Source of the DNA: Paraspadella gotoi
Taxonomy: Eukaryota; Animalia; Chaetognatha
DNA length: 64,000 nt
Assembly (NCBI GenBank): GCA_051294375.1
Contig: CM119266.1
Location: forward strand, 6,651,431 to 6,715,430
Direction: 5' to 3'
In this document: positions 35,901 to 40,025 of the stretch, piece after piece
Layout: the number at the start of each line of letters is the position of its first letter
How positions within the stretch are numbered: the stretch's first letter is position 1
Program-made: the position numbers and the translations under genes
The notes under the pieces: model-generated
The model's input: only the letters and a program-made list of their open reading frames with translations
What the model was told of the DNA's origin: nothing
Database searches by the model: none

Positions 35901-38900
35901 TTACCACTGAGATTCTCCATCGCGCCGGTGGCCACCGACTTCCATCCCAGGATTACTTCCAAGATTCTTCCCCGACAATCGGTGGATCATTCCTGGGATT
36001 TTGTCGGTCAAATCTCCGCCTTTCGCCTTTAAACTTCATTAAGAAAAAGGGGATCAAAACTTGGGTGGGGGAGAAAAAAAAGGATGAGAAGATGTGTTGT
36101 TGACGAATCTTAAAAAAACGTGACGATGTTCGACGACGCGGGACGTCGGGTTTTTTCTTCTGTGGCGACAGAGATGGATTGAGCGGAGAATAAGAGGATC
36201 TCTGTTTTGAGATGAATCTTTCTCCCGTGAAACGTCTCAAATGTTTTCTCACCCCCTCTCTTTCTCTCTTACCCTCTCTCTCTCTTCGGATCTCTCTCGT
36301 ATTTATTGATTAAAAAAATTGTGGACATTTCGCCACCTTTTGGCTTTATCGCTATCTCGTTCCCCCTTCATTCTTTTTGGCGATGTTTTTCTTATTTCTA
36401 CATCAGACAAGAGCCAATATTTTAAAGATTTTTTTTCCTACTTCTTCCAAAATAAACCCGACGAAAAAGTTTTTTCTCTCTTTCTCTCTTGTGGCATATT
36501 TTTATAAAGTATGGCATTTCGGGCGAACCCGTTTGGGGAATAATCTTCGGGGTTTTTTTTCGGGGGGAAAATATAAATATGAATCGTTTAAAAAAAAAGT
36601 AAAAAGCGAACAAAAGAAGGACGTCGAAGAAAAATCGGTTTTTGGACGAATCTTCTTCTCCCTAACTCCAAGCAAAAATAATAATTGCTTCACCGCGATT
36701 ATTTTTTTCTCTCGCGAACTTACTCGGCGGGACGCAAATTGATTACCGAAGCTCGGGATTTTTAACCAGACGTTAAAGACCGGCCAATTAGAACGGTTTC
36801 GTTGGTGTTTTTATTATTTCAACTACTTGCCATTTTCATTAGTTGATGATGTGGCAATGCATCTATTTAAGAAACGAGTGAATTAAAAAGAAGAATGACT
36901 TTTGGTATATTTTTAGAATATTATTCAGAAAAGAGGAAAAATACGAATGTGTAAGAAATTCCGAAATTAAGAAAAAAAAAATCTTTAAAAATCGAATTTG
37001 AATCAAAGGCGTTGTTGATGAAAGGCGAGACAGATAAGGCGAATCTCCGTTGAAAATCTTCCCCGGGCGTCGGAGATATATCGATCCGCAGAAGTGGATC
37101 GTCGGCCTTGGAACGCCGAAGAGATTGGACCGGCTCCCCCGCACTCGCGCCCGTTTACGCCCTTGCGTTGAAACGAGAATGTGTGTTGGGCTGGTGTCCC
37201 CAGATGACGCTTCGATTTGAAGTTAATCGTGGGGATTTTTTTATAAAAATCTTTACCTAGATCTTTACCTACGTATCTTTATCCTTATTGGCACGCCCTC
37301 GACGCTATTTCGATGACGCGATCGAATGCGCGGAAATACATCACGGATTCGGCGCCTCGACTCGCGCCTCCCCGCGTGGCGTCGCTTTCCTGTTTTTTTC
37401 CCCAGGGTGACGTCACCTTTTTTCGAATGAAATGTCGACAACGCTGACGACTTATCCCTTCGTATACTTGAGCTTTTTCGCTAAAAGGAAAAAGGAATTA
37501 AACTGCTCACCACATTTTTACCGCCACATCGATCCTACTCGCTCCACCTCGAGTCTTTTGTCGCCAAATTGACAAATTTTTTCTCCAATTTTTTTCCCTT
37601 TTTTCGACGCAAAAAAAAGAGAGAGAGAGAGAGAGAGAAAAGAAAGGTTTCTCTTTCTCGTATAATTGCGGAGAATTCCGATCGACTGAAAAGAAGGAAC
37701 GAATCGCGATCAAATTTCTTTTCTTTTTTTTTTCTTTCGGTTCGAAATGGTTTTTTTTTATAATAGTTTACCTGATCAACAAGGATTGGCCTTTAAAAAA
37801 TAATCAGCCGAGTTTTGGACTTTGACGTTTTTCATTATTATGACTTCGTTTCGTCGCTGGCTTCCTTTTTTCGCTTCCTCAGAAGCTCACGGGTACTAAT
37901 GGTTTTCCGTTGTTATAAATTGCAGTTTTTATACAGTGCGACAAGACGGATATTTGATAAAAAAGGCCGAATATCCCAACTGAATAATCTGGGACTTTAT
38001 TTCGGATCAAACTCGACAATCGGTTGCTCAGATCTAACATTCTTTCACAACAGACGGTTGTCAAAAACTTAGTAAAAAAAGTGGAACATTTGATCGCTTT
38101 TTTGACGTGATCATTTTTGACTGATCATGCGGCGTCGATCTCTGTCGAAAGAATACGCCTTACCGATCAGCTCCGTCTCCCACGCTCACCTTCGATGATT
38201 ATTAACTCAACTTCACTAGTTAAATCACGTTCTCGTCATGGGCAACGCCGTCTCTGGCGCAGCCAGCTACGGAATGAATGCTTCCGAGCCTGAGTCTCCT
38301 TTCGCCCCTCCGACCGATGCCGGAATCTTCAAACGCGGGACGGCGTCGCGCGTGCGAAAGACGGACGGCGTCGCCGGAGAGCGGCGACGTCTTCGGAAAC
38401 GTTACGAGGTCGCGGCGGCGTCGCCCGGAGCCGGCGGATTGGAGGGAGTCTTCAGGCGGACGGGCAGCTTTATGGTCGGCGGCTCCCTAAGCGACGATCT
38501 GTCAAGATCGTCGTCGATTGGCGATGAGGCGGACAGGTGGCGTCGAATAATGTTTCATGACAATTACTGGACATTGAAATGACAGGATGTAGACTTGATG
38601 AATAGCTGACAAATACATAATAATACCCAACAGACGTGACAATGTAAATTTATCGATATACAGGGTAATTACATGACAAGAATTCTGTATTGTAATGATT
38701 GAAACTTTGGTATACTAGGTTAGTAGCCACAGTATCTTGGGTATCTATTTTTGGCAACTGATTGATATACCTTGTGAAGGTTAATAATCATGACTTCGTT
38801 ATTCTTTCCGCTATGACCCGACGTCACCTTCCCTCACCAACCCCTCGTTTCCCGCGCTTCATTCGTCTTTTAGCGTCCCGTCCTGGAGTAACGCCGCCTC

Positions 38901-40025
38901 TCCGCGCAATTCTGTTTCATCTTACGGTTCAGCATCTAAACTCCGTAAACTGGGATGCTCCCACTGTCAAACCTGTCCTCGCTGTCCGAGTTGCGATCAC
39001 CGCCTCCACGGCGACTCTCAGGAACTCCTCGAGCAGCTCGACAACCTCGACGGGCGCCGAAGTCGCGATTCCGGCCGAGGTCTATCTCCTTCTTCCGCCG
39101 GTCGACGATCCTGTCGATTTTTATCCTTCTGTCGCTGCTCCGGCGGTTGCGTTTGCACCGGCTCATGCCGGTGCGCCGACGGGTGCGTCTGCGCCGGAAT
39201 CTGCCGCTGTTCGGGCTTTTACTCGTTTTGCGCCGACGAATCCGAACTTTTCCCTTTCTTTCAAATCGATCCCGCTTGGCTGCATCCTGAGGGTAAGGGG
39301 TGGTTGAGGTTGCAGAGGAGGAAGATTTAAGGTGTTCTGTCAGTTGGCAAATACAAGAGAATTGGATGGGTTGTGGAGTTTTCATTTTGCTGCAACAGAA
39401 TGAAAATTAATTTCTGTAGAACCAATGTAATAAAAAACGTGTATAATTAAAAAGCCAAATATGGAGAATTTTATTTTATATCAATAATGATACAGTAGCA
39501 TACATCAGCAACAACCTTAGAAAGGCTATGGTTAGTTAATACCTACAACCCTTTTAGTATTACAAGCTCGTAATACCCTCAAACTTCTATTCGTGACTTT
39601 CTCGCAATACAGTTGGAGGCAATCGACTGTTAAGTTGAATTCCAAGAAGAAATCCAAGAAAACTATTTTATAAGGGAGTGGTTTTTAAAGTGAGGGCGGA
39701 AAAAGGAAAGGGGAAGGTCATAATTCATTCTGCTTGAGTTTTGTTTTGAATTCTCTTCTTTTTGTCGTCGCCATAATTAATGTTGATTCTTCTTCAGACA
39801 CGACGTCGGCGGAGACGGATTCCCAGTCCAACGCCTCCTCGGAAAATCTCTCGCTCAAAGGTGAGTTCCTCCTTTTTTTCACCCAAAGCTCCACTCGCTC
39901 TAAATCTCTCCTTAAGCCGCTCCTCGACTTCCGCTCCAGACGCTACCGCGGCGTCTCCATGCTTAGACGCAACCTCTCAGTCCCCCTCGGCCAAGCGGCA
40001 GATGCATTAATAAAACATCAAAAGC

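What the first reader, a model, noticed from the sequence alone, without database searches (positions are those of the whole stretch)
38238..39292. Hidden myristoylated, metallothionein-like N-terminus that can splice onto the CARMIL tail
Seen: a frame absent from the ORF track encodes CxxCxxCxxCxxC followed by five CxC pairs spaced by three residues ([27 protein letters not shown]), preceded by an MGNAVS exon and ended by a strong phase-1 donor with no stop. The next acceptors (39798, 40319, 40840, 49115) are all phase-1 CARMIL tail exons. Established: MGxxxS is the N-myristoylation consensus; CxC arrays bind metal clusters or are palmitoylated; the CPI motif regulates capping protein. Inference: an internal promoter makes a lipid-anchored, metal- or redox-sensitive capping-protein regulator lacking PH-LRR-HD.
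Basis: partly seen in the sequence, partly recalled or inferred. Interest (0 to 1): 0.8.

Follow-up and report, generated by a model that had tools for sequence, protein, structure and literature searches.

The report
Short, lipid-tagged CARMIL tail isoforms
Inside an animal gene for the actin regulator CARMIL, two hidden internal exons, one of them packed with cysteines, are spliced onto the gene's tail in RNA, and they likely make short, fat-anchored versions of the protein that would lack its self-braking front half; the join that would give the cysteine exon its start, and any metal binding, remain untested.

Summary
The Cys arrays, the MGNAVS reading frame and the phase-1 tail acceptors are at the stated places, in a CARMIL gene. 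One RNA-like run shows the Cys exon spliced to tail exon 39798 (1 contig, depth 7; main form 129). The join 38536-38874 was not seen: that contig runs unspliced through the predicted intron. New here: a second internal exon (ATG 48469, MGLFQS) splices in frame straight onto the CPI exon at depth 97, so both candidate internal starts fit MGxxxS (background 5 of 631 ATGs). Best reading: internal starts make myristoylated, CPI-bearing tails without PH-LRR-HD, probably not autoinhibited; the Cys form is minor. Rivals: the Cys exon as a 360-nt cassette (38933-39292) of full-length CARMIL; a retained-intron, non-coding RNA; or ending at a minor last exon (46743) before the CPI. No homologue of the Cys exon was found. 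It is not a metallothionein family member, and metal sensing is speculative. The scan's earlier notes hold nothing like it.

The parts
37961..38237 (+). Transcribed stretch upstream of the MG start (likely 5' UTR or outron); two short uORFs (38127, 38195); candidate acceptor at 38220, 18 nt before the ATG
   Evidence: Contig 37961-38489, depth 5.7, with 3 substitutions and one 10-nt deletion, all upstream of the ATG; uORFs; acceptor 4.7 bits
38238..38536 (+). Predicted first coding exon, starts MGNAVS, 99 codons plus 2 nt, basic cluster (11 K/R in residues 28-57)
   Evidence: Open frame; GC step at 38240 and 38546; codon score 0.15, GC3 0.71; RNA cover to 38489 only; donor use not seen
38537..38873 (+). 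Predicted 337-nt intron; retained (38548 onward) in the one contig that covers it
   Evidence: GC 0.38 with 9-10 stops in each + frame; contig 38548-39291 unspliced
38874..39292 (+). Cys-rich exon (acceptor 38874, phase 2; alternative acceptor 38933, phase 1); donor 39292, phase 1
   Evidence: Joint 39292-39798 GT..AG, depth 7, 1 contig; donor 7.8 bits, top 1.6% of GT sites; acceptors
38956..38994 (+). Five Cys at period 3 (CxxCxxCxxCxxC)
39130..39210 (+). Five CxC pairs at period 6; 36-nt tandem duplication at DNA level
34175..34259 (+). Last full-length CARMIL exon before the internal exons; holds an R..RP.S motif like the autoinhibitory antenna
   Evidence: Joint 34259-39798 depth 129; motif at 34229; antenna HMM gave no hit here
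39798..40947 (+). Three shared tail exons (39798-39860, 40319-40480, 40840-40947)
   Evidence: One 334-nt contig, depth 141
46743..46834 (+). Minor alternative last exon, in frame to a stop at 46832, ATTAAA at 46876; would end the protein before the CPI
   Evidence: Joint 40947-46743 GT..AG, depth 5.4
48469..48661 (+). Second internal 5' coding stretch, starts MGLFQS, 64 codons plus 1 nt, in frame with the CPI exon; exon probably begins near 48172
   Evidence: Joint 48661-49115 GT..AG, depth 96.8; only in-frame Met after a stop at 48369; acceptor 48172 11.5 bits; start inferred from bin depth
49115..49315 (+). CPI exon ([10 protein letters not shown] at 49219)
   Evidence: Pfam CARMIL_C E 1.4e-4, 22 bits, under the 25-bit cut-off; HMM from 98 homologue CPI regions, E 3.7e-5, only included hit; joints

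Best explanation
This CARMIL gene has two internal exons that RNA shows spliced onto its tail, and it likely starts transcripts inside its long tail introns to make short proteins that begin MGNAVS (joined, as predicted, through the Cys exon) or MGLFQS and would be N-myristoylated. Shown: the joints 39292-39798 and 48661-49115, their frames, and the CPI-like motif downstream. Inferred: (1) internal start or spliced-leader addition; (2) the 38536-38874 intron is slowly or partly removed; (3) Gly2 is myristoylated, and the lipid plus a basic cluster replaces the PH domain as membrane anchor; (4) lacking LRR, HD and the antenna-like exon, these forms are monomeric and not autoinhibited, so they recruit and loosen capping protein at a membrane more readily than full-length CARMIL; (5) in the minor MGNAVS form the 15 arrayed cysteines most likely bind Zn or Cu as a compact thiolate module (about 0.45), or else are S-acylated as a second anchor (about 0.3). 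A true metal or redox switch is less likely (about 0.15).
For: Joint 39292-39798 at GT..AG exactly at the predicted donor. Only the Cys frame runs on into the CPI; the Ala-rich frame from ATG 38813 stops after 217 codons and the third frame stops at 39290. Between repeat units pN/pS is 0.46 and 0.41 in the Cys frame, against 0.96-1.08 in the other two + frames. The MG stretch looks coding (GC steps at 38240 and 38546; codon score 0.15 against -0.28 for the intron and -0.13 for the UTR). Of 22 donors that could feed a Met-started frame into 38874, 38536 scores highest. The second exon was found through its RNA joint (depth 96.8) and also starts MGxxxS, a pattern of 5 of 631 + strand ATGs. In human CARMIL1 the isolated CP-binding region uncaps better than the PH-LRR-HD-containing protein, in part through the antenna (PMC13004031, passages). 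MGxxx(S/T) consensus: PMC6478813, passages.
Against: The join 38536-38874 is not seen; the one contig there (775 nt, depth 7) is unspliced from 38548. Intronic contigs nearby reach depth 5.6-6.2, so cover of the MG/Cys region is near background and only the joint is specific. All RNA evidence is one run, of guessed kind, as contigs that give no start and no phasing. The repeat frame test is not significant by column permutation (p 0.08 with the frame fixed, 0.25 for best of three), and the codon score barely separates the + frames of the Cys exon (0.08, 0.03, 0.05). No homologue, so no conservation test. The CPI matches 5 of 7 consensus positions and no CSI consensus follows it. Both leaders carry uORFs (2 and 7 upstream ATGs). 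A minor last exon before the CPI has a depth like the Cys joint (5.4 against 7).
Confidence: 0.45

Rival explanations
1. The Cys exon is a rare 360-nt cassette (38933-39292, phase 1 at both ends) spliced between 34259 and 39798 of full-length CARMIL. It inserts 120 residues with both Cys arrays between the antenna-like exon and the CPI; the MG stretch is a separate or unused frame and this form has no myristate.
For: Acceptor 38933 scores 6.1 bits against 3.3 for 38874, is in phase with donor 34259 and keeps both arrays. The gene has other probable cassettes (32081-32148). Contigs are graph-simplified (Logan preprint, passages), so a weak junction beside a deep one could be dropped (my inference).
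Against: No 34259-38933 joint or loose end; the contig runs on upstream of 38933. It leaves the coding-like MG stretch, whose phase-2 donor fits only 38874 among the nearby exons, without a partner.
Confidence: 0.15
2. The transcript from about 37960 keeps the 337-nt intron. It makes at most the 114-residue MG peptide, or is degraded as a premature-stop message; the Cys array is an untranslated or decayed tandem duplication.
For: The only contig is unspliced through the intron yet spliced at 39292; the retained frame stops after 114 codons; weak donor and acceptor; DNA-level tandem repeat; no homologue; frame test not significant.
Against: Sharp GC steps at the ATG and at the donors; 139 codons open in the one frame that fits the tail; both TGC (11) and TGT (6) used for Cys; 0 differences in 744 nt of that contig and in 252 coding nt, against 4 in the 277 nt upstream (p about 0.08).
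Confidence: 0.2
3. MG exon, Cys exon and the three shared exons end at the minor last exon 46743, giving a roughly 380-residue myristoylated Cys-rich protein with no CPI: a nested product that borrows CARMIL exons but does not regulate capping protein.
For: Joint 40947-46743 exists at depth 5.4, close to the 7 of the Cys joint; it reads in frame to a stop at 46832 with ATTAAA 44 nt on.
Against: Low-level joints cluster near the detection floor, so equal depth is weak; contigs cannot phase; 113 against 5.4 of the shared-exon output goes to the CPI exon.
Confidence: 0.15

Closest known systems
CARMIL family (human CARMIL1/LRRC16A; PMC5491179, PMC13004031, passages read)
   Same: Host gene has LRR exons matching CARMIL1 at E 2e-19, tblastn hits along PH-LRR-HD and a CPI-like motif in the tail.
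   Different: [quoted passage not shown] Here two internal exons enter the tail downstream of PH-LRR-HD. I found no short or myristoylated CARMIL isoform in searches.
Isolated CARMIL CP-binding-region constructs (CBR; CBR plus membrane-binding domain; PMC13004031 passages, PMC13208823 abstract and outline)
   Same: Tail-only fragments that bind capping protein, are more active than the folded protein and can be membrane-targeted.
   Different: Those are laboratory constructs; here the gene would make them itself, with a predicted lipid anchor and, in one form, a Cys-rich module. No CSI consensus here.
Small CPI-motif proteins (CapZIP, CKIP-1, CD2AP, FAM21; named in PMC13004031)
   Same: CPI motif carried to a membrane without CARMIL's LRR scaffold.
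   Different: Separate genes; none of the passages read describes myristoylation or Cys arrays.
Myristoylated cortical proteins MARCKS and BASP1/NAP-22 (PMC6478813, passages)
   Same: MGxxxS start, basic cluster, disordered body; NAP-22 is reported to bind CapZ (seen only as a reference title).
   Different: Unrelated in sequence; no CPI.
Animal metallothionein domains (PMC7826182, passages and part of Table 1)
   Same: [CxC]x3[CxC] spacing recurs in mollusc beta domains; the array here is [CxC]x3 five times.
   Different: Matches none of the domain formulas seen; sits inside a protein of over 500 residues; no Pfam or PDB match.
Alternative first exons that change the N-terminus (PMC13082882, passages); c-Abl 1b as a myristoylated first-exon form (recalled, no call)
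   Same: [quoted passage not shown]
   Different: Here the internal starts would remove the whole folded, autoinhibitory half.

Membership tests
CARMIL (host gene) | LRR region homologous to CARMIL1-3 | tested here: met
   522 of 881 candidates at E<=0.001; best E 2e-19, CARMIL1 names; tblastn hits from 10968 to 29954
CARMIL (host gene) | CPI motif LxHxTxxRPK(x)6P in the tail | tested here: met
   L, H, R, P, K kept; T and the last P not (5 of 7); own HMM E 3.7e-5; Pfam CARMIL_C 22 bits, under cut-off
CARMIL (host gene) | CSI motif RxDEGxEEFFxKR after the CPI | tested here: not met
   No RxDEG in the tail frame near the CPI; only a loose IDHFY in the next exon; HMM of CSI-BH region gave no included hit. 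Some invertebrate CARMILs lack it
CARMIL (host gene) | Antenna motif between HD and CP-binding region | tested here: inconclusive
   R..RP.S in 94 of 98 homologues; one such motif at 34229 in the CARMIL frame, but 6 in all six frames; HMM no hit
CARMIL (host gene) | Binds capping protein and weakens capping | not testable with these tools
   Needs a binding or uncapping assay
N-myristoylated proteins | Met-Gly start with Ser/Thr at position 6 | tested here: met
   MGNAVS at 38238 and MGLFQS at 48469; each is the only or first in-frame Met after a stop; purine at -3 and G at +4
N-myristoylated proteins | That Met is the real start of the protein | tested here: inconclusive
   Contigs show no transcript start; uORFs upstream; an acceptor at 38220 could make MGNAVS internal
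Metallothionein | Cys in CxC / CC motifs | tested here: met
   Five CxC at period 6
Metallothionein | Small protein (mostly under 100 aa) with 15-30% Cys (PMC7826182) | tested here: not met
   17 of 139 residues (12%) in the exon; predicted product over 500 residues
Metallothionein | Sequence match to an MT family or domain formula | tested here: not met
   0 Pfam families for the exon or the CxC core; 0 PDB sequences at E<=10
Metallothionein | Forms metal-thiolate clusters | not testable with these tools
   Needs metal-loaded peptide and mass spectrometry
Spliced-leader trans-spliced transcript (chaetognath type) | Leader joined at an unpaired acceptor | tested here: inconclusive
   Unpaired acceptors at 38220 and 48172; no leader among the loose ends shown, 13 not shown; taxon is a lead from earlier notes only

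The most novel reading that the evidence does not exclude
One CARMIL gene releases its capping-protein-binding tail as a set of myristoylated, brake-free mini-proteins, and one of them carries a newly evolved metallothionein-like cluster that makes membrane actin uncapping respond to zinc, copper or redox state.
Probability: 0.15. Interest if true: 0.8.

Novelty: new variant of a known kind. Interest (0 to 1): 0.48.

Why it matters
CARMIL is treated as one large, dimeric, partly autoinhibited scaffold, and its active tail has been studied as a laboratory fragment. A gene that makes such fragments itself, with a lipid anchor in place of the PH domain, would be a natural test of what autoinhibition and dimerisation are for, and a cue to look for unannotated short CARMIL forms elsewhere. 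The MGLFQS form looks about as deep as the full-length joint in the one run seen. If the Cys module binds metal, it would be a direct link from metal or redox state to barbed-end control, and an example of a new domain built by tandem duplication in an intron.

Tried and rejected
No whole genome was held, so no paralogue or genome-wide first-exon survey. Run search listed no holder on record as RNA; X1 is a guess, X2 and X3 (other organisms) covered only a 31-nt repeat: no evidence either way on conservation. The gap 38490-38547 and the missing 38536-38874 and 34259-38933 joints are holes in contigs and prove no absence. Homologue searches were blank for the Cys exon (0 of 194 candidates; 0 in 1.84 billion), the CPI exon (0 of 369) and exact look-ups (0 of 5); the MG and MGLFQS exons got only Pfam and exact look-ups, no homologue search. 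PDB sequence searches blank for the CxC core and the CPI. AlphaFold on the Cys exon alone gave mean pLDDT 42, so no fold search was run. A weak zinc-ribbon Pfam match to the CxxC run (E 0.011, under cut-off) was set aside. Ala-rich frame (ATG 38813) rejected as the product: premature stop in exon 40319. An assembly frameshift in the Cys exon rejected: the contig matches 744 of 744 letters. Stronger donors inside the intron (38664, 38718, 38779) cannot deliver a Met-started frame to 38874 (absent from the list). One of 18 training sets in the codon model (65 codons) was entered in the wrong frame; splice matrices came from 33 donors and 32 acceptors of this window, some predicted by me. No complex prediction was run. 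No supplements were opened.

Full report
Observation. The described features are in the sequence. ATG 38238 opens MGNAVS and runs 299 nt to a phase-2 donor at 38536. The stretch 38874-39292 (419 nt) continues that frame without a stop and ends in phase 1. It holds five Cys at period 3 (38956-38994) and five CxC pairs at period 6 (39130-39210), 17 Cys in 139 residues. The frame has no Met of its own. Ten Cys in 27 residues is the highest value in the six frames of the window; 0 of 20,000 dinucleotide shuffles reached it. The array is, however, a 36-nt tandem duplication at DNA level, which such shuffles do not model.

Host gene. An LRR stretch (25223-25579) finds CARMIL1 proteins at E 2e-19 (522 of 881 candidates pass), and a full-length homologue maps by tblastn from 10968 to 29954. 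The exon at 49115 carries the CPI-like motif: Pfam CARMIL_C at E 1.4e-4, under the cut-off, and a profile from 98 of 122 stored proteins hits only this exon (E 3.7e-5). It keeps 5 of 7 consensus positions of LxHxTxxRPK(x)6P (consensus from PMC5491179, passages); the CSI consensus is absent. Earlier notes of the scan call the genome a likely arrow worm; I did not test this.

RNA. One run, X1, holds the region (kind guessed, kept as contigs). It shows 12 GT..AG joints among 14 listed in 37750-50700, so it contains spliced + strand RNA. The main route is 34259-39798 (depth 129), then 39860-40319, 40480-40840 (one contig, 141) and 40947-49115 (113). The Cys exon is joined to 39798 at the predicted donor in one 775-nt contig of depth 7. 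That contig starts at 38548 and runs unspliced through the predicted intron, matching 744 of 744 letters. A second contig covers 37961-38489; its four differences all lie upstream of the ATG. Nothing covers 38490-38547, where the donor lies. So the 3' join is seen and the 5' join is not. Intronic contigs reach depth 5.6-6.2 further on, so only the joint is specific evidence. Depths of contigs are rough, and contigs are graph-simplified (Logan preprint, two passages); that short side branches may have been pruned here is my inference.

A second internal exon. One search also shows a joint 48661-49115 at depth 96.8. From ATG 48469 to 48661 is 193 nt, phase 1, in frame with the CPI exon; it is the only in-frame Met after a stop at 48369 and begins MGLFQS. 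I had seen this frame before the RNA test; the joint confirmed it at a donor I had not picked. MGxxx(S/T) follows 5 of 631 + strand ATGs in the window. Bin depth fits an exon start near a strong acceptor at 48172, with no partner among the listed joints; 13 loose ends were not shown. Trans-splicing affects about half the genes of one chaetognath (PMC12460157, passages), so a spliced leader is possible but untested.

Is the Cys frame the coding one? It is the only frame that continues into the tail: the Ala-rich frame from ATG 38813 stops after 217 codons and the third stops at 39290. Between repeat units pN/pS is 0.46 and 0.41 in the Cys frame and about 1 in the other + frames, but a column permutation gives p 0.08, or 0.25 for best of three frames. 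A codon-usage score calls both stretches exon-like (MG 0.15, Cys 0.08, intron -0.28, UTR -0.13) and does not separate the Cys exon's frames well (one of 18 training sets was mis-framed). GC steps fall at 38240, 38546, 38808 and 39322, close to the ATG and the two donors and 66 nt ahead of the acceptor, in a C-rich tract.

How the Cys frame is entered. With splice matrices from 33 donors and 32 acceptors of this window, donor 38536 is weak (4.6 bits) but is the best of 22 donors that could bring a Met-started frame to 38874; acceptor 38874 is weak (3.3). A better acceptor at 38933 (6.1) is in phase with donor 34259 and would make a 360-nt cassette of full-length CARMIL. Neither join was seen. 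A minor joint 40947-46743 (depth 5.4) leads to an in-frame stop at 46832 before the CPI, and contigs cannot say which 5' end uses it.

Mechanism. Shown: two internal exons feed the tail in frame. Inferred: they are reached from internal starts, both products are myristoylated at Gly2 (consensus in PMC6478813, passages), and both lack PH, LRR and HD. In human CARMIL1 the isolated CP-binding region uncaps better than the folded dimer, partly because an antenna motif docks on the LRRs (PMC13004031, passages). An R..RP.S motif like the antenna core (94 of 98 homologues) lies in exon 34175-34259, the last exon upstream of both entry points, though a profile search did not pick it up and the pattern occurs 6 times in six frames. 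The short forms would thus be membrane-bound, monomeric and unbraked. A membrane-targeted tail fragment activates capping protein in vitro (PMC13208823, abstract). For the Cys arrays I favour a Zn/Cu thiolate module, because [CxC]x3[CxC] spacing recurs in metallothionein beta domains (PMC7826182, passages); S-acylation is the main alternative. Nothing here shows sensing.

Comparison and novelty. The host is a CARMIL. The Cys exon is not a metallothionein family member: 12% Cys, inside a large protein, no Pfam or PDB match. It has no detectable relative, and a single-sequence fold was uninformative (pLDDT 42). Alternative first exons are common (PMC13082882, passages). I found no short or myristoylated CARMIL isoform in the listings of searches, nor a chaetognath metallothionein paper in one search; the library lacks most subscription papers and I opened no supplements. 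The scan's notes hold nothing similar.

Verdict. Real feature; new variant of a known kind. Probability that the Cys exon is translated in the Cys frame about 0.8; that it is fed by the MG exon and reaches the CPI about 0.45; that the MGLFQS short form is made about 0.7; that a metal or redox switch exists about 0.15. Interest 0.48.

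Noticed in passing
window 51050-51070: The window has one more G than the RNA contig that follows exon 49989-50040 (loose end); the RNA form keeps the tail in frame into a basic and aromatic stretch like CARMIL's membrane-binding segment. Likely an assembly slip or allele.
   Followed up: partly
window 32081-32148: Probable 5' alternative exon of the tail: a mix of its end and the end of exon 31390-31535 reproduces 28 of 30 letters of the loose end before 34173.
   Followed up: partly
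window 42293-46084: A spliced (3 introns, depth 32) Ig-domain membrane-protein gene nested on the same strand inside the CARMIL intron 40948-49114.
   Followed up: partly
window 28147-26579 (- strand): Intronless 523-codon antisense ORF inside another CARMIL intron, with a Cys-containing N-terminal part, a Pro-rich middle and Gly-rich repeats; no Pfam match.
   Followed up: no
window 46743-46880: Minor alternative last exon that would truncate CARMIL before the CPI.
   Followed up: partly
window 48172-48468: Leader of the MGLFQS exon holds several uORFs, one of 49 codons in the same frame as the main start.
   Followed up: partly
window 39464-39514: Short AT-rich stretch matched by contigs with unrelated flanks, probably a dispersed repeat.
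   Followed up: no
window 651-16500: eIF2-gamma, CTU2 and a signal-peptide-peptidase-like gene lie close together on the + strand; CARMIL's PH/LRR hits start at 10968, so the peptidase-like exons near 14-16.5 kb seem to lie inside CARMIL.
   Followed up: no
window 50224-50235: Possible 12-nt micro-exon, skipped in the contig seen.
   Followed up: no
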